Below are positions 48,001 to 54,000 of a stretch of DNA of 64,000 bases, piece after piece. The stretch is taken from contig CAWKCK010000003.1 in the NCBI GenBank assembly GCA_963848135.1, forward strand, positions 124,001 to 188,000, read 5' to 3'. The stretch comes from an uncultured delta proteobacterium. Lineage in GTDB: Bacteria > Desulfobacterota > Desulfobacteria > Desulfobacterales > SG8-13. The stretch's first letter is position 1. Each line of letters opens with the position of its first letter. Position numbers: made by a program.

Positions 48001-51000
48001 AGTTTGAAATGGTTTCCTTCTGCGAATCCCTTAGCTGCTACCGGAAATCGATTCAGGGGCGCGTCGGTATAATCTCCGTCAGCGGCGGTCACGGTGTGTT
48101 GGTGACGGACATCTGCATCGCCAGGGGGCTGGCGGTCCCCCAACTTTCGAAAAGTGTTCAGCAACAAATCCGAGAATCGCTGTCGACCCGCATTCAGCCG
48201 ATCGCCTCATTGGAAAATCCGATCGATTTAACCGGGAGCGCAAAGGACGATGATTTTGTCGCTGCAGCGAATGTCCTCAGCCGGGCACCGGAGGTCGATA
48301 GCGTGATACTGTTATTGCTGCCCTATTCGCCGGGGATCAGCTCCGATCTTGGCGCGCGTTTGAGCTATGTGTTTGGCCGCGAGGGCAAACCCCTCGTGGC
48401 CTACGTGCCCCACCATGAAAAATACCGTATGTTGATCGAAGGCTTCGAGTTGAACAATGTCCCGGTATCTTCCTCCATCGATGGTGCGGTGCTGATGGTC
48501 GAGGCCATAAGGAGGTGCCGTCCATGTTGAACCAAGAAATGGAGAAAATCATCCACCAGGCACAAAAAACCGGTTGGATTATGGAGCCTGTAGCGAAACG
48601 CCTGCTTGCTCTGGCCGGAATACCGGTACCTGAATTTCGTTGGGTCGCCACCCTGCCGGAAGCCCTCAAAGCCGCTGAAGCTATCCGCTACCCACTCGTC
48701 GCCAAAGTCGTCTCACCGGACATCATTCACAAATCCGAAGTCCGCGGCGTGGTGGTCGGTATCAAGGATAGGGCTCAACTCACGAATACGTTCAGCGCGT
48801 TCAGCAAATTGAAAGGATTTTGCGGGATTCTGATCGAAGAACTGGTCCCGGGAATCGAGTTGATCGTTGGTGCGAAAATCGACTATCAGTTCGGCCCGGT
48901 AATATTAATGGGTATCGGCGGAACGGGTGTCGAAATTTACCAGGACACGGCCTTGCGCATGGCACCCCTGTCTGAAAAAGATGTCACCTCAATGATTGAC
49001 AGCCTGAAAGGCGATAAACTTTTGAAAGGATATCGGGCGGCCGAACCGGTCAACCTGAACGCATTAAAGCAGTTGATGGTTAATTTTTCAACTCTCGTCA
49101 TGGCGCTCGAAAATCGGTTCGATTCGATAGATTTGAATCCGGTGAAATGTACCGCCAATGGCAGTATCGTCGCCGATGCCCGCATCATGCTCAGCGGCTG
49201 ACAATCCGAAAAAAATACCCGGCCATTCAATGACCGGGTATGGCATCAAAATCAGATCGTCTTAATCGGTCCCCGCCCGTGCCATGTAGCGCTGCAGCAG
49301 TTTCTGATTGTCCTCCGCCGTAACGATACCGGGTAATTTTTCCAAGGCAAGATCGGCAGCGGTATCGATCATCTCTGCGCGCAAGGTGCTTTGAGCCTGA
49401 CGGAGCCGCCCCGCGATCTTTCGCTTGGCATTCGCCATGATAATTTTGCTCTCTTGATGGGCTTCGTTGATTATCTCCTGTTTACGTCGTTCTCCCATCT
49501 TAACGATCCGCTCTCTAACTTCATCCAATCGACCCGAATTATCTTCAAGATCCTTTTCAGCTTGCCGGACACGCTGGACCAGTTGGTTTTTCTCTTCTTC
49601 GAGATTCTGTATTTTAAGTGATATTTCTTTTCCTTTTCCGGATAGAAAGTTCTTCAACGGCAGGCGGGCGAACTTGACAATCACAAAGACCAGGATAGCA
49701 AAGTTGACCCAACGCATGACCAGATCGTAGGTAGGCCTCCAGCCTCCGCTGCTCTCGGCGGCAAAAACCTCTAACACTCCGGAGAAAAAAACGAGAAGAG
49801 TAATTGAGACAACAATCCCCGTCAGGTGACGACATCTCTTCTTGCACGTCATGATGTGAGCCTCCGCTCCAGCAGTTTTTCCATCATTCCAACGGCAAGC
49901 GATTGGGCTTCTTTTTGTACCGACTTTCTGGCTTCGGCAACGAGTGCCGTAACCTGCTGGCGGTCTTCTTGCGACAGTTTTTCCACTTCGCGCCGGACAG
50001 CGTTAACGATTCCGTCCGCTTCCTGCTTACCGGATCCTTCAATTTTCTCCCGGATTTCATGGGCCTCGCGAATGACTTCGGTTTCCTGCTTTTTTAACCG
50101 TTTCATCAAGCGCACTATCTTTTTCTCAGCCTCCGTGGCATCATCCTGGATATTTTGGATGTGGCCCTCCCTTTCCTGAACCACACTGCGCAGCGGCTGG
50201 ATCATGACCCGGTTGATGATGTACAGAAAAATCAGAAAAGATATCAATTGAATGATGAGGGTCTCATTGATACTGATCAATGCAATGTTGCTGATGATCT
50301 GCATAGCATCCGTCCAAAATATAATACGGCCCAGTTTACCCGCCGAGAACGATCACGCACCATGGCCAATGATGGTTTCATGACCGCCAGCGAAGAAATT
50401 AAACCCGTCAAAGGTGTCGCTATACGCCGAACCCGCCGCAGGGTCATCCCCAATGCGATCGAGTCACCCTTTTTTAATTCAGGCCCTTGCGTAGCGTATG
50501 GATATATTTAGTCCGTTTAAACGACAAACAGAAGCAGGAGCGCAATGACCAGAGAATAAATTCCCGTTGACTCCGAAACCGCCTGTCCCACCAGCATGGT
50601 ACGCGTCAGCAAACCGGCTTCCTGGGGATTTTTTCCGATGGCTTCACATGCTTTGGCAGCCACCATCCCTTCCCCGACACCGGGACCGATTGCTCCAAGC
50701 CCCATGGAAATTCCAGCACCGATGAATGCTGCTGCTTTTACGAGATCTGCACCTTCGATTGCCATTTTATGTACCTCCTGAAAGCGACAAAATTAGATTG
50801 ACCGTCTACTTTGAAATTATTGATTCAGCCGCCGCTGTCCCGGTCGCGAAATCGATGCTTCGCAGTGTCAAACAGAGCGGGGTTTTCAATTTTAAAGCAC
50901 AAAAATGAGAACCAGGCTTATCACCATGGCATAAATAGCGGTGGATTGAGACACAGCTTGCCCCACAAGCATGGTCCGCATTAAATCACCGGCCCGTGAC

Positions 51001-54000
51001 GTATTTCTGGCAACCCATTTTACGGCACCCTCGGCAGCCATCCCGTTACCGATACCGGGACCGATACCTCCCAGGCCAGTGCATAAACCGGCAGACAGCA
51101 ATGCCATGGACGCACTGAGCGCCTGGGATTCTGGAAAGGCCTTGAAAAGCAGGATGAAGCTAACCAAAAGGCCGAAAATAGATGGTGTCTGGGCCACGGC
51201 CTGACCCACCAGCATGGTGGTGGTGACATTGGCAACCGATTCCGGGTTTCGGGCGATTCCATCACAGCTGACACCTGCCGCCATGCCGCCACCGTAACCG
51301 GACCCGATTGCCGCCAGACCGGTACTCAGGCCCGCGCCAATCAAGGCCGCCCATGTCGGAAATAATGGTGAGCTACTGAAATCCATGAAGATCAACATCA
51401 ACGCCACCACCATGGAAAAGATTGCGGGCGTCTGGCACACGGCCGACCCGATCAGCATATTGGTGGTCAGACGGGAACCTATGGCCGGCTGGCGTGAAAT
51501 CCCCAGGCAACACTGGCCGCCCGGAAATCCTGATCCGATACCGGATCCTATGGCGCCAAAACCCATGCTGAGGCCGGATCCGAACAGGGCGGCCGCCTTC
51601 AGCGGTGTCGCACCGGGAGCATCGAGAAAAAGAAGCAAAATAGCAATCACCAGAGCGAAGATAGACGCGGATTCCGCCACTGCCTGGCCCACCAACATAT
51701 TTTTGAAAATATCACCGGAAATCTTCGGATTGCGGGATACTGCCAGGTTGGCCTGAGCGGCGGTGTACCCTTCACCAATAGCCGCACCGATGGCTCCGAG
51801 ACCCATCGCAATTCCACCGCCGACGAAGGCACTCAACTGTACGATTGTTTGTACGTCAAACTGCATATTCTACTTCACCTGTACGGAAATGTAGACCACA
51901 GTGAGCATGGTAAACACAAATGCCTGTATTGTTCCGACAAAAAGGCCGAAGAACCCGTTTAGGAAAGGGGGTAATATGATACTGTAGCTCAAATAAGATA
52001 CCACCAGGATGATGATGGAGCCGCCCATAATATTTCCAAAGAGCCGGAATGAAATCGAAATAATCTTTGCAAGCTCACCGATAAGATTAAGAGGCATCAT
52101 AAAGAAAATCGGTTGAAAGTATTCCTTGGCGTAGTTTTTGAACCCTTTGCTCTTGATGCCGGCATAGTGGGCAATTACGAAGCCCATAAGACCTAAACTC
52201 AGCGGGGTGTTCAGATCTTTGGTTGGTTCTTCGAGATGGGGAATGATTCCCAGCCAGTTGGAAAGCAAAAGAAACATGAAGAGCGCGCAGACCATCGGAC
52301 CGTACTTCCGGGCCTTTTCCCTGTCGAGGGCATCCTCGGTCAATTTGTAGAACTGCTCCACAAAAATTTCTCCCAAGACCTGAAGTGGTTGGGGGACGAT
52401 TTCTTTTTTTCGGGCAGCAGACATACCGAAAATAATGAGGAAAGTGATAACGATCCATGTCATAATGATCACATCCAGGTTCAGTGTGATCGTGTAGCCG
52501 AATACAGGTATGATCAGCTGATGGACAAGCCCAAGTTCACCCATGAAAGGTTTTCCCTCACGAAACTTTATTTGGAATGACGTGAATATATTTGCAGAAA
52601 TGCTCTGCAAGGATAACGAATTGCACCATGAAGATACCGGTGATCGTCGTCGCCAGATGAAACTGCTCAAATTTGACAGCGACAACCAGTGGAATCGCCA
52701 GAATGAGGTAGCGGATAAACATAGAGGACATAGAAAGCACAAATGTTTTTCTGCTCGACCGGCCGAACTTGAGCGGCAGCGTCTCACCCATAAGGACGAA
52801 ATTGATCACGCTGAACAGCGTCCCCAGAACGAGTCCTTTTCCTAAGGCTGTTTGTCCGGTGAAGATAATAACGAGGGCAATAATTACAGCCGTCGCCATG
52901 GCTCGGGAACCGTATTTTTTCTGTGTCGCCCTAATCGATTCCATTATCCCGCCCTTTTTCCTCCTTTTCCTTGACGTCCTTGTCTCGAACGATCTCCATG
53001 ATTTGCCGGTAGGCCACATTCCCACCGCCAATGATACCCAGGATGGTAAAGACAGCGATGAAGATCCCCCTGGTGCCTAACCACTGATCAAGTTTGTAGC
53101 CGATAAAAAAACAGAAGGCGATACAACCGACCATTGTCAATCCGAGTTGCATGACAATCGTCAGGTGTTCGGCCCATGAACGGTTTTTTTTGTAATTAAT
53201 GACCATTAAATCGCTCCGGCGGCGGAGCGGACCTTACCGCGGATTTACCGAAGCAAAGTTGATAACACACAAGAAAAAAAATGCAACCGTTAATTATGTT
53301 TATATTGCTAATTAAATAACAAATATTGTTCAGTTTTTATATTCAGTTCAAATTTCACGAAAACTAAATGACGCCCAAGGATCTCACGCTGCATGGATAG
53401 GTACCATCAGATGAGATCAAAAGAGTGTTGAAATTTCACTGCGTAGCCGCTACGATATTGAGTAGAATTTTCGGGTAAACCAATTTTCTTCACAGGAGAT
53501 GTAAAAATGGCAGTCATAACGATCTCCAGGCAGTTCGGGGCCGGTGGATTAACTCTGGGCAAAAGAATCGCCAAACGACTCGACTATTCATTTTTCGACA
53601 GCGAGATCATCCAGATGGTCGCTCAGCAGGCGAAAGTATCAACCCGTTGGGTGGAATCCATGGAAAAGGAAGCCGGAGGGAAACTGGAACGTCTAATTTC
53701 AGGCCTGGTTTCGAAAAGTTTCATTGATCGCTTACTGGACGACCGCCGGGGCTATATTGATGAAGAAATTTATGTCGACCTGCTTGGCAAGATCATCAAA
53801 AAGATTGCCGAAGATGGCAACGCAGTCATTCTCGGCCGGGGTAGTCAGTATATCCTCAAAGATTATGATCGTGTTTTTCACACCCTTCTGGTTGCCGACA
53901 AGGAATACCGCATAAAGTTCATAGAGGAAAAATACGATCTGTTCACCAAACACGCAATCCAGACCGTCAACAATGAAGACAAACGCAGGATTAACCTATA

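What a model noticed while it worked through the whole genome (the two positions that open the first line are those of the whole stretch)
49262..53206. Second Fo sector with a four-hairpin c subunit that keeps only one ion-binding site
Besides a normal Fo gene set (C17: atpZ-I-a-c) and a single F1 operon (C18), the genome has a second Fo operon (atpZ, atpI, a, c4, c, b', b) in which g01013 is a 324-aa fusion of four c-subunit hairpins; only hairpin 1 keeps the ion-binding carboxylates, hairpins 2-4 carry Gln instead, while the neighbouring single c (g01012) has a two-carboxylate Na+-type site. Boldest reading: Desulfobacterales can swap the membrane rotor of their one F1 for a hybrid, Na+-coupled c-ring with a strongly reduced ion-to-ATP ratio (V-ATPase-like gearing), i.e. 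an F-type enzyme geared as an ATP-driven ion pump or for synthesis at high sodium-motive force. New would be a 4-hairpin c subunit in a bacterial F-type [...]
Evidence so far: pfam.tsv: four ATP-synt_C hits in g01013 (aa 16-78, 95-158, 176-239, 257-320, each E about 1e-14 to 1e-15, full model). Operon g01016-g01010; other atp genes: Fo set g03713-g03716 on C17, F1 plus b/b' g04953-g04959 on C18; no second F1. Helix-2 motifs read from the sequence: hairpin 1 AVAESAS, 2 AVCQTPA, 3 AVAQTPS, 4 AVSQSTA; helix-1 position GEG / GSG / GGG / GNG; single c g01012 GEG + AVSESTGIY; C17 c g03713 ALIESLC. Homologues: matches in 14 of 15 other genus genomes and in 7 of 9 other Desulfobacterales families sampled, 59-98% identity, mostly on 324-325-aa frames; in 30 Desulfobacterota genomes of other orders only one match, a 239-aa three-hairpin form. 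Alignment of 8 sequences: hairp [...]
(Added by a program. Inside this text positions count along the whole contig: contig position 124,001 is position 1 of the stretch shown here. "Call 12" and the like, gene names such as g00115 and contig names such as C1 are that model's own, and its searches are not shown. The text may have been shortened before it was handed on; [...] marks where a part breaks off. The agent that wrote the report below was given it as the finding of a first reader that could run no searches.)

Follow-up and report, generated by a model that had tools for sequence, protein, structure and literature searches.

The report
Spare sodium rotor with four-hairpin subunit
This sulfate-reducer relative carries a second, F1-less membrane motor for its single ATP synthase, whose rotor gene fuses four c-subunit hairpins but keeps only one ion-binding site, a design shared by many relatives that may change how many sodium ions move per ATP.

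Summary
Window 49262-53206 (minus strand) holds atpZ-atpI-a-c4-c-b'-b. c4 (324 aa) is four fused F-type c hairpins: Glu at the carboxylate position only in hairpin 1, Gln in hairpins 2-4. The next gene is a single c with the full two-carboxylate Na+ motif of the Fusobacterium nucleatum ring.

- **Genome:** two a subunits, one gamma and one alpha/beta pair.
- **Order sample:** 123 of 201 genomes carry such a gene; 122 of those have two or more a subunits, and 85 have exactly two a and one gamma.
- **Relatives:** 2 to 6 hairpins, nearly always one Glu. Extra hairpins are duplicated blank middle hairpins.
- **Other families of the phylum:** the same genes sit inside a complete F1Fo operon.

Best reading (confidence 0.6): an Acetobacterium woodii-type hybrid Na+ rotor taken further, built as an alternative Fo for the one F1. 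Not shown: ring stoichiometry, coupling ion, direction (pump or synthase), and the "gearing" benefit.

I rate it a new variant of a known kind. No paper I could search describes 4-6-hairpin F-type c subunits, but the key 2015 review could not be read.

Novelty: the claim cannot be closed because Brandt and Mueller 2015 is not held.

The parts
53293..53322 (-). promoter-like -35/-10 pair about 90 nt upstream of atpZ
   Evidence: 9 of 12 consensus matches. Such sites occur at chance frequency in the region (4 found, 5.7 expected), so only the position speaks for it.
52931..53206 (-). atpZ-like small membrane protein (91 aa)
   Evidence: PF09527 3.6e-15. First gene of the operon in the related loci.
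52558..52944 (-). atpI (128 aa from the MESIRAT start; the longest ORF starts at 53031)
   Evidence: PF03899 3.9e-09.
51870..52544 (-). Fo subunit a (224 aa from the MGELG start), with the conserved Arg in SFRLFGNI
   Evidence: PF00119 4.9e-52. The Arg motif aligns with chloroplast and Bacillus PS3 a subunits. 37% identical to the C17 a subunit.
51618..51866 (-). c4 hairpin 1 (aa 1-83): the only site-bearing hairpin. Glu32 and Glu65; positions 66/67/70 are S, A, F.
   Evidence: (E32, E65, S66, A67, F70 invariant in 20 sequences).
51375..51617 (-). c4 hairpin 2 (aa 84-164): blank. Ser112 and Gln145; 66/67/70 equivalents are T, P, F.
51132..51374 (-). c4 hairpin 3 (aa 165-245): blank. Gly193 and Gln226; T, P, F.
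   Evidence: This penultimate-type hairpin forms one clade in the quick tree.
50892..51131 (-). c4 hairpin 4 (aa 246-324, plus stop): blank carboxylate position (Asn274, Gln307), but the neighbour-ligand set S308, T309, Y312 is intact.
   Evidence: The last hairpin carries S/T-T-Y in 215 of 217 unique multi-hairpin proteins.
50517..50765 (-). Single-hairpin c (82 aa) with the E32, V63, E65, S66, T67, Y70 Na+ motif
   Evidence: PF00137 2.4e-18. Aligned to 4bem_A, 1yce_A and 3zk1_A. Ligand list from PMC3692424. 73 of 76 unique neighbouring single c proteins read E-V-E-S-T-Y.
49849..50304 (-). Fo subunit b' (151 aa)
   Evidence: PF00430 8.5e-17. Only 24% identical, over 51 residues, to the C18 b'.
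49262..49852 (-). Fo subunit b (196 aa); overlaps the b' stop by 4 nt
   Evidence: PF00430 3.3e-14. 24% identical to the C18 b.
49215..49241 (-). terminator-like hairpin (12 pairs, then a T run) directly after b; the operon ends here without F1 genes
   Evidence: The next genes are on the other strand.

Best explanation
The operon encodes a complete alternative Fo sector (assembly factors Z and I, stator a, rotor subunits c4 and c, peripheral stalk b'/b) for the genome's single F1.

The rotor is most likely a heteromeric Na+-binding c-ring of the Acetobacterium woodii type. Several single-hairpin c subunits each give one Na+ site. One or more c4 subunits each give one site plus three consecutive hairpins in which Gln replaces the Glu, so no ion is carried there.

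The residues that complete a site from the neighbouring hairpin (positions 63/66/67/70) are kept only in the last hairpin of c4. That would let it complete the site of the next subunit. Every Glu in the ring would then have a full ligand set, and every degenerate ligand set would face a blank.

The ring carries fewer ions per turn than a ring of single c subunits of equal size. For illustration only: with 11 hairpins, as in its closest solved relatives, one c4 gives 8 sites, about 2.7 instead of 3.7 ions per ATP.

The cell would thus own two exchangeable membrane motors for one F1: an ordinary one on contig 17, whose c resembles H+ rings more, and this Na+ hybrid.

Shown: gene content, motifs, conservation, and two a subunits per gamma. 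Inferred: the mixed ring, Na+ coupling, docking to the F1, and direction. I lean to ATP-driven Na+ export, or a slow reversible enzyme. F1-driven rotation can cross an ion-blind arc freely, whereas ion-driven rotation must cross three steps without drive. That argument is my own reasoning and comes from no call.
For: Architecture and motifs:
- Gene order and domains.
- The closest solved chains are A. woodii c1 (4bem_J, 3e-22, collinear over hairpins 1-2) and c2, then I. tartaricus and F. nucleatum Na+ c subunits. Foldseek on the AF2 model (pLDDT 91.7, eight helices) also puts 4bem_J first.
- A. woodii and C. aceticum c1 show the same E-to-Q loss in the second hairpin, next to a single c (passages in PMC7911925; 9:1 ring in PMC9171764).
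- The single c has all six F. nucleatum ligand positions.

Family pattern in 217 unique multi-hairpin proteins:
- Residue at the carboxylate position of each hairpin: EQQQ 135, EQQQQ 52, EQQQQQ 15.
- Last hairpin S/T-T-Y in 215 of 217.
- No hairpin that is followed by a Gln hairpin has a complete ligand set (0 of 724).

Context:
- A single c follows in every locus where sequence continues: 76 of 80 (the 4 without are cut at the contig end), 20 of 20, 15 of 16.
- The a subunit keeps the essential Arg.
- One F1 only.
- In the order, 122 of 123 carriers have at least 2 a matches, and 109 have more a than gamma matches.
- Full operons Z-(I)-a-cN-c-b'-b-delta-alpha-gamma-beta-epsilon occur in L112, L113, L114, L121 (4 of 20 loci) and in L129, L132, L133, L134 (4 of 16 loci examined; these four lie among the six loci with a six-hairpin gene, and the other two, L130 and L131, end at the contig end). 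The ordinary Z-I-a-c set lies elsewhere in those genomes.

Other:
- b/b' C-termini against delta: weak support, score 0.60, best control 0.01; runs agree in at least 91% of contacts; partner pLDDT at least 83. The mark was reached by 51 of 78 solved complexes and 2 of 108 mismatches, but a score of 0.60 or under is a weak pass and may reflect likeness to solved complexes.
- Contigs of one marine-sediment RNA library, 88-99% alike, cover parts of Z, I, a, c4, c, b' and b. These come from relatives, and DNA carry-over is not excluded.
Against: - There are no biochemical data for any member.
- This operon has no F1 genes, so the pairing is inferred.
- b and b' are only about 24% identical to the F1-linked copies.
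- Nothing shows that c4 and c share one ring, or in what ratio.
- Hairpin 1 itself has A67 and F70 instead of T and Y. Its site is complete only if the neighbour ligands come from the preceding hairpin. I could not check that direction, because no coordinates were available. Within chains, only 5 informative pairs fit it (complete set before Glu) and 4 do not (for example the three-hairpin E-Q-E form of L119).
- Contiguous blanks may give no thermodynamic gearing at all, only a free-wheeling arc (my reasoning).
- The C17 c also has Gln32, Glu65, Ser66 and Tyr70, so an H+ versus Na+ division of labour is not secure.
- Rnf/Nqr-type genes are present in 190 of 201 genomes of the order and do not mark carriers.
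Confidence: 0.6

Rival explanations
1. The ring is built of c4 alone, or is dominated by c4. Three copies, for example, would give 12 hairpins and 3 sites. That is an extreme low-ratio, effectively irreversible ATP-driven Na+ pump. The single c would then serve another ring or another condition.
For: c4 follows a after a 3-nt gap, which suggests coupled translation, while c follows after 126 nt. The c4 model folds as a self-contained arc of four hairpins. The last hairpin's S-T-Y set could equally complete hairpin 1 of another c4.
Against: A single c with a full site follows in every locus that continues and is highly uniform (E-V-E-S-T-Y in 73 of 76). That argues it works in the same machine. 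The solved precedent is a mixed 9:1 ring. Sites 120 degrees apart would leave subunit a without an engaged site for most of the turn (my reasoning).
Confidence: 0.12
2. It is the same hybrid rotor but coupled to H+, or promiscuous for H+ and Na+. The two Fo sectors would differ in ratio or regulation, not in ion.
For: Two-carboxylate sites can be H+/Na+ promiscuous, as reported for M. acetivorans in PMC3692424 (passage). Motifs alone do not fix selectivity. The C17 c shares Q32/E65/S66/Y70.
Against: The single c matches all six ligand positions of the Na+-specific F. nucleatum ring, including S66 and T67. The closest solved relatives are all Na+ rings. The C17 c has Leu at 67, and among single-hairpin chains its best matches are H+ rings of cyanobacteria and chloroplasts.
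Confidence: 0.15
3. The Fo module works without F1, as a gated Na+ conductor or with an unknown partner. The blank arc would serve as a closed, parked state.
For: There are no F1 or delta genes in the operon here or in 80 of 80 close loci within 9 kb. A terminator-like hairpin follows b.
Against: The operon carries b and b', whose only known role is to hold F1. The same gene set is fused to delta-alpha-gamma-beta-epsilon in other families. The b/b'-delta prediction gave weak support (0.60 against a best control of 0.01).
Confidence: 0.06
4. It is a decaying duplicate: hairpins 2-4 are dead copies with no role.
For: Loss of the carboxylate is what decay would produce first.
Against: Frames are intact in 123 of 201 genomes of the order. 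Gln, not a random residue, sits at the blank position in essentially all hairpins, and T-P-F is conserved in 455 middle hairpins. Within the close set, 88% mean column identity across 20 sequences. Blank hairpins were duplicated further, to 5 and 6.
Confidence: 0.02

Closest known systems
F/V-hybrid c-ring of the Acetobacterium woodii Na+ F1Fo ATP synthase (c1 plus c2/c3; PDB 4BEM), and the like genes of Clostridium aceticum
   Same: A fused F-type c with Glu in the first hairpin and Gln in a later one, followed by a single c with a Na+ motif, in an operon with atpI, a and b. It is the best sequence and fold match. The first hairpin loses Tyr70 (to Phe) and the last keeps T-Y, as in the alignment.
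   Different: Four hairpins here (2-6 in relatives) against two, so 3-5 consecutive blanks instead of one. Glu rather than Gln at position 32. The operon lacks F1 genes and is a second Fo beside an ordinary one. It carries b' plus b. It is found in Desulfobacterota, not acetogenic Firmicutes.
Two-carboxylate Na+ c11 ring of Fusobacterium nucleatum (3ZK1) and the Ilyobacter tartaricus c11 ring (1YCE)
   Same: The single c has E32, V63, E65, S66, T67 and Y70 as in F. nucleatum, with E-values of 1.5e-18 and 9.6e-19.
   Different: Those rings are homomeric, with one site per hairpin. No multi-hairpin subunit is present.
V-type and archaeal A-type proteolipids with duplicated or multiplied hairpins and fewer sites
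   Same: The principle is the same: hairpins are fused and carboxylates lost, which lowers ions per turn. A passage in PMC9171764 says archaeal c subunits have 1, 2, 3 or even 13 hairpins. These chains are Foldseek hits 2 and later.
   Different: By sequence c4 is F-type: the NCBIfam F0F1 C models score 211 bits, while the best V-type K model scores 96.9, below its cut-off of 188. In V-type rings the sites are evenly spaced. Here the blanks are bunched. One site in four to six hairpins is not among the forms listed in that passage.
N-ATPase (alternate F1Fo operon with its own F1)
   Same: It is also a second, Na+-motif F-type set in one genome.
   Different: N-ATPase operons carry their own beta, epsilon, alpha and gamma. 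This one has none. The alt_F1F0 models for a and b are far below cut-off (129.9 of 302.1; 33.8 of 224.7). An N-ATPase-like cluster exists separately in G497 (L128).

Membership tests
F-type ATP synthase subunit c (PF00137) | Helical hairpin of two transmembrane helices matching the family profile | tested here: met
   Four full-length PF00137 stretches in c4 and one in c. The AF2 model has eight helices, pLDDT 91.7.
F-type ATP synthase subunit c (PF00137) | Ion-binding carboxylate in the middle of helix 2 of each hairpin | tested here: not met
   Glu only in hairpin 1. Gln145, Gln226 and Gln307 sit in hairpins 2-4 and are invariant in 20 sequences. The single c meets the feature.
A. woodii-type hybrid (F/V) rotor | A multi-hairpin c gene with a carboxylate-free hairpin, next to a single-hairpin c gene with a Na+ motif | tested here: met
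   The pair is conserved in all loci that continue.
A. woodii-type hybrid (F/V) rotor | The genes lie in a complete F1Fo operon | tested here: not met
   No F1 genes here or within 9 kb in 80 of 80 close loci. The feature is met in relatives of other families: L112-L114, L121, L129, L132-L134.
A. woodii-type hybrid (F/V) rotor | Both c types assembled in one ring; Na+-dependent activity | not testable with these tools
   Needs a purified ring or enzyme. Nothing was found in the searched literature for Desulfobacterota.
Two-carboxylate Na+ site (F. nucleatum type) | E32, V63, E65, S66, T67, Y70 | tested here: met
   The single c has all six by alignment to 3zk1_A, with the ligand list from PMC3692424. 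For c4 hairpin 1, E32, V63, E65 and S66 are met, but T67 is A and Y70 is F.
N-ATPase | Operon with its own F1 beta/epsilon/alpha/gamma and AtpQ/AtpR; matches to the alt_F1F0 equivalog models | tested here: not met
   No F1 genes. TIGR03306 scores 129.9 against a cut-off of 302.1, and TIGR03321 33.8 against 224.7. TIGR03322 is passed by c4 only as the sum of four hairpins (149.3 against 130.85), while the single c scores 65.2.
V/A-type proteolipid (subunit K/c) | Match to V-type K models above cut-off | tested here: not met
   The best V-type K model scores 96.9 bits against a cut-off of 188. F-type models score up to 211 bits.

The most novel reading that the evidence does not exclude
Desulfobacterota own a family of F-type rotor subunits with 2 to 6 fused hairpins and a single Na+ site. 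These build an ion-blind arc of adjustable length into the c-ring. Together with an ordinary Fo they give one F1 two exchangeable motors.

Hairpin number (4, 5 or 6) would be an evolutionary dial for ions per ATP. Alternatively it would set a one-way behaviour, in which ATP-driven rotation passes the blind arc while ion-driven rotation stalls there. That would make this a natural clutch or gearbox in a bacterial F-ATPase, used by abundant marine sulfate reducers to convert between proton and sodium gradients through ATP.
Probability: 0.35. Interest if true: 0.88.

Novelty: new variant of a known kind. Interest (0 to 1): 0.72.

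Why it matters
The ion-to-ATP ratio of rotary ATPases is usually thought to be set by ring size, and in V-type or A-type enzymes by evenly spaced site loss. 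Here a major clade of marine sulfate reducers, organisms that live near the thermodynamic limit, conserves a rotor subunit that removes three to five neighbouring sites at once, and keeps it as a second motor for a single F1.

If the mixed ring exists, three things follow:
- It is a natural test of how far a rotary motor tolerates ion-blind sectors.
- It is a test of whether elastic coupling can bridge those sectors.
- It is a test of whether cells swap Fo sectors to shift between H+ and Na+ economies. A passage in PMC11887813 describes Na+-driven sulfate uptake in these bacteria.

The residue pattern also gives a concrete structural prediction that can be falsified. Cultured carriers exist: the Desulfosarcina widdelii chromosome holds the operon (L046).

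Tried and rejected
- **Papers not held:** Brandt and Mueller 2015 and Matthies et al. 2014 could not be read, so earlier mention of such genes cannot be excluded.
- **Literature searches:** none found a description of F-type c subunits with 3 or more hairpins. The mBio 2026 paper only notes 2-4 atpE copies in Desulfatiglandales (passage). The one held supplement of PMC11887813 has no Atp entries.
- **Riboswitch or other RNA upstream:** no Rfam match in the window at gathering level, and none in 53000-53700 at E<=1.
- **Longer forms:** no relative above 567 aa apart from one archaeal 966-aa protein. The tool warns that this is weak evidence.
- **Rnf/Nqr co-occurrence:** RnfD/NqrB-type genes are in 190 of 201 genomes. 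Of the 11 without, 1 carries a multi-hairpin c. Because the genes are present in nearly every genome sampled, their presence does not set carriers apart.
- **Expression:** only one RNA run held 6% of the sampled words. Laid on the operon, its contigs are from relatives (88-99% alike) and cover 21 of 30 bins. This does not show transcription of this operon in this organism.
- **Structure coordinates:** none were available to scripts, so I could not measure which neighbour completes the hairpin-1 site.
- **Hairpin tree:** the careful tree did not finish in 288 s, and only the quick tree is used.
- a mis-set coordinate gave a wrong atpI frame. It was corrected.
- **N-ATPase and V-type membership:** considered and rejected.

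Full report
**What is there.** On the minus strand of window 49262-53206 lie seven close-set ORFs. Pfam names them as follows:
- atpZ-like (PF09527, 3.6e-15)
- atpI (PF03899, 3.9e-09)
- Fo subunit a (PF00119, 4.9e-52)
- a 324-aa protein with four full-length ATP-synt_C stretches (PF00137, 3.7e-59)
- an 82-aa single c (2.4e-18)
- two ATP-synt_B proteins (8.5e-17 and 3.3e-14)

NCBIfam agrees. It places c4 with F-type c models (up to 211 bits), while V-type K models stay under their cut-offs. A 12-pair terminator-like hairpin follows b at 49241-49215, and the next genes are on the other strand. A promoter-like site sits about 90 nt upstream of atpZ, though such sites occur at chance frequency in the region.

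**The hairpins.** I cut c4 into its four hairpins and aligned them with the single c.

| Hairpin | Helix 1 | Helix 2 |
|---|---|---|
| 1 | GEG | AVAESASIF |
| 2 | GSG | AVCQTPAIF |
| 3 | GGG | AVAQTPSIF |
| 4 | GNG | AVSQSTAIY |
| single c | GEG | AVSESTGIY |

In 20 close homologues these positions are invariant: E32, E65-S66-A67, F70, S112, Q145-T146-P147, F150, G193, Q226-T227-P228, F231, N274, Q307-S308-T309 and Y312.

An AlphaFold2 model is confident (pLDDT 91.7, pTM 0.90) and shows eight long helices. Foldseek against the PDB puts A. woodii c1 (4bem_J) first, but it covers only half of the model (TMq 0.48, TMt 0.84). V-type c subunits follow. No solved chain covers four hairpins.

**Comparison with solved rings.** By sequence, the best PDB matches of both c4 and c are A. 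woodii c1 and c2, then the Na+ rings of I. tartaricus and F. nucleatum. The F. nucleatum paper (passages read) lists the Na+ ligands. Glu32 and Glu65 come from one subunit. Val63 O and Ser66 come from the adjacent subunit. A water is held by Thr67 and Ala64, and Tyr70 and Ser66 hydrogen-bond to Glu65.
- The single c has all six positions.
- Hairpin 1 of c4 has E32, V63, E65 and S66, but A67 and F70.
- The alignment shows the same trend in A. woodii c1: first hairpin ETS..F, second QTT..Y.
- The C. aceticum paper describes c1 as a duplicated hairpin that lost the carboxylate, beside a typical Na+ c2 (passages).

**One F1, two Fo.** In the whole assembly (98.65% complete):
- PF00137 finds the four hairpins, the single c and one c on contig 17.
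- PF00119 finds two a subunits.
- PF00231 finds one gamma.
- PF00430 finds two pairs of b.
- PF00006 finds alpha and beta on contig 18, plus a T3SS/flagellar ATPase and Rho.

Contig 17 holds Z-I-a-c. Contig 18 holds b'-b-delta-alpha-gamma-beta-epsilon.

The paralogues are old. The two a subunits are 37% identical, the two b subunits 24%, and the two b' subunits 24% over 51 residues. The a subunit here keeps the Arg of SFRLFGNI.

The contig-17 c reads GQG ... ALIESLCIY. Among single-hairpin chains its best PDB matches are cyanobacterial and chloroplast H+ rings. Its coupling ion is therefore open, but it looks less Na+-like than the window's c.

**Relatives: conservation of the operon.** A protein search gave 2405 hits at E<=1e-10 among 8000 scored candidates. 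The best 120 have lengths near 324, 405 and 485 aa.

Of the 80 best genome loci, 64 show Z-I-a-c4-c-b'-b. The other 16 break down as follows:
- 13 are cut by contig ends.
- One has a swapped call order.
- One has a second Z-like ORF.
- One has c4 called as c3 plus c1.

None of the 80 has an F1 gene within 9 kb.

In an even sample of the order, 123 of 201 genomes (81 of 121 genera) have a match at E<=1e-40. In a sample of the phylum, 46 of 401 do at E<=1e-30. Forty of these are among the 386 genomes of other orders, with open frames from about 160 to about 490 aa.

**Relatives: always a second Fo.** I crossed (tallied). For the 123 carriers:
- PF00119 matches: 1 in one genome (87% complete), 2 in 97 genomes, 3 in 21, and 4 in 4.
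- 109 carriers have more a than gamma matches.
- 85 show exactly two a and one gamma, as here.
- 7 have no gamma match.
- 7 have equal numbers. In three of these the gamma seems split into two weak matches.

Of the 78 non-carriers, 50 have one a subunit.

**Relatives: other hairpin numbers, and a link to F1.** I fetched twenty loci chosen for unusual frame lengths. They show c2, c3, c4, c5 and c6 genes, each followed by a single c reading E|VESTY.
- Four of the 20 (L112, L113, L114, L121), from other families of the phylum, have the complete order Z-(I)-a-cN-c-b'-b-delta-alpha-gamma-beta-epsilon.
- A scan with one six-hairpin protein found the same full operon in 4 of the 16 loci examined. These four lie among the six loci with a six-hairpin gene; the other two of those six end at the contig end.
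- In three of those genomes (G564, G520, G218) the only F-type alpha/beta pair is the one in this operon, and an ordinary Z-I-a-c set lies elsewhere without F1.
- G497 has in addition an N-ATPase-like cluster.

So the hybrid Fo genes are physically tied to an F1 in some lineages. In both layouts, two a/c sets face one F1.

A complex prediction of the b and b' C-termini of this operon against the genome's delta gave weak support:
- Score 0.60 in three runs; best control 0.01.
- At least 91% contact agreement between runs; partner pLDDT at least 83.
- The mark was reached by 51 of 78 solved complexes and 2 of 108 mismatches, but a score of 0.60 or less is a weak pass.
- The job is unlike the calibration set, and the pass may reflect solved b-delta complexes.

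**The family rule.** In 217 unique multi-hairpin proteins, the residues at the carboxylate position of each hairpin read:

| Pattern | Count |
|---|---|
| EQQQ | 135 |
| EQQQQ | 52 |
| EQQQQQ | 15 |
| EQQQE | 5 |
| EQQ | 3 |
| EQ | 2 |
| EQQQQE, EQQE, EQE, QQEQQQ, and one with a gap | 1 each |

Position 32 is E in 207 of 225 Glu hairpins. In Gln hairpins it is S, N, G or A.

The neighbour-ligand triplet (positions 66/67/70) varies by hairpin position:
- First hairpins: S-A-F in 200 of 217.
- Middle hairpins: T-P-F in 455 of 517.
- Last hairpins: S-T-Y in 215 of 217.
- No hairpin followed by a Gln hairpin has a complete triplet (0 of 724).
- Before a Glu hairpin, the triplet is complete in 5 cases and incomplete in 4.

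If the triplet of hairpin n completes the site of hairpin n+1, 729 of 733 intrachain pairs fit. In the opposite direction only 301 of 734 fit. The last hairpin is kept intact to complete the Glu site of the next subunit in the ring.

This is an inference. The direction was not checked on coordinates, and most of the fitting pairs are uninformative blank-blank pairs.

**How the hairpins multiplied.** A quick tree of 106 hairpins (the careful search did not finish, 81 columns, many open forks) separates three groups:
- first hairpins (support 88);
- last hairpins (99*, plus one odd row);
- middle hairpins (98*).

The penultimate hairpins form one clade (100*). The extra hairpins of 5- and 6-hairpin forms cluster with hairpin-2-type copies within lineages. 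So blank hairpins were duplicated more than once. The window's single c groups with the first and last hairpins.

**Mechanism.** The best-supported reading is an A. woodii-type hybrid Na+ rotor carried further. In A. woodii the ring has nine one-hairpin c and one V-type-like c (passage in PMC9171764). The same passage gives 8-17 subunits and 2.66-5.6 ions per ATP for known F-type rings. It also says archaeal c subunits have 1, 2, 3 or 13 hairpins.

If this ring had 11 hairpins like its closest solved relatives, the arithmetic would run as follows. Ring size is unknown, so this is illustration only.

| Multi-hairpin subunit (one copy) | Sites | Ions per ATP |
|---|---|---|
| none (all single c) | 11 | 3.7 |
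| c4 | 8 | 2.7 |
| c6 | 6 | 2.0 |

I add a caution that comes from reasoning and from no call. The blanks are contiguous, not evenly spaced as in V-type rings.
- F1-driven rotation can cross such an arc without hindrance, but it does no work there.
- Ion-driven rotation must cross three to five steps without drive, against the load of F1.
- The mean ratio may therefore overstate any gearing gain.
- The arc may instead make the enzyme asymmetric: a good pump and a poor or slow synthase.

Against a pure-pump view, some lineages place their only F1 genes behind the hybrid Fo genes.

**Physiology.** This part is open. Na+-driven DASS sulfate transporters are described as abundant and constitutive in Desulfosarcina (passage in PMC11887813), so these cells need a sodium-motive force. 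RnfD/NqrB-type genes are in 190 of 201 genomes of the order and do not set carriers apart.

One marine-sediment RNA library holds contigs 88-99% alike to parts of all seven genes. They come from relatives, and DNA carry-over is not excluded. No Rfam family matches the window or the leader.

**Known or new.** The kind is known: the hybrid F/V rotor of A. woodii, and multiple atpE copies in anaerobes, as cited from Brandt and Mueller 2015 in a 2026 paper (passage). I found no description of the following in nine full-text searches:
- F-type c subunits with four to six hairpins and one site;
- their ligand pattern;
- their spread over most of an order;
- their layout as an F1-less second Fo.

Database names seen are only 'ATP synthase F0 subunit C', or 'hypothetical protein' for Desulfosarcina widdelii. 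The 2015 review and the 2014 structure paper are not held, and I saw no supplements that bear on this. I therefore rate it a new variant of a known kind, with that reservation.

Noticed in passing
window 54267-54877 (-) and 53507-54118 (+): A cytidylate-kinase-like gene (PF13189) on the minus strand is split into two ORFs (profile positions 1-45 and 59-175). An intact paralogue lies beside it on the plus strand. This is a frameshift, a pseudogene or an assembly error.
   Followed up: partly
window 47136-49201 (+): A two-gene ADP-forming acyl-CoA synthetase (CoA_binding/Succ_CoA_lig, then ATP-grasp_5), preceded by a flavin reductase-like gene, converges on the Fo operon's terminator.
   Followed up: partly
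window 55039-56362 (-): A tandem universal stress protein (two Usp domains) and a lone response-regulator receiver lie upstream of the cytidylate-kinase-like genes. No link to the Fo operon was examined.
   Followed up: no
L128 (G497:C1:17000-33000): One genome of another family holds three a subunits: the ordinary Z-I-a-c set, the hybrid full operon, and an N-ATPase-like cluster (beta, a Z-like ORF, a, c, b, alpha, gamma).
   Followed up: partly
L119 (G133:C1), L108 (G198:C56), L115-L118: There are variants with a second Glu hairpin at the C-terminal end: E-Q-E, E-Q-Q-E and E-Q-Q-Q-E. They look like a multi-hairpin c fused to a single c, and a further single c still follows them. In L119 the hairpin before the terminal Glu hairpin has T-P-L, which does not fit my ligand rule.
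   Followed up: partly
P0001 (434 aa, one metagenome contig): An odd hairpin order, Q-Q-E-Q-Q-Q, with hairpins that cluster as middle/penultimate/last twice. This is probably a partial tandem or a chimeric assembly of two c4 genes.
   Followed up: no
L136, L139 (records titled Desulfosalsimonas sp.): Long forms whose tblastn match spans about 1470 nt, the length of six hairpins. My HMM called five hairpins. They occur in MAGs titled Desulfosalsimonas. Whether hairpin number tracks salinity was not examined.
   Followed up: no
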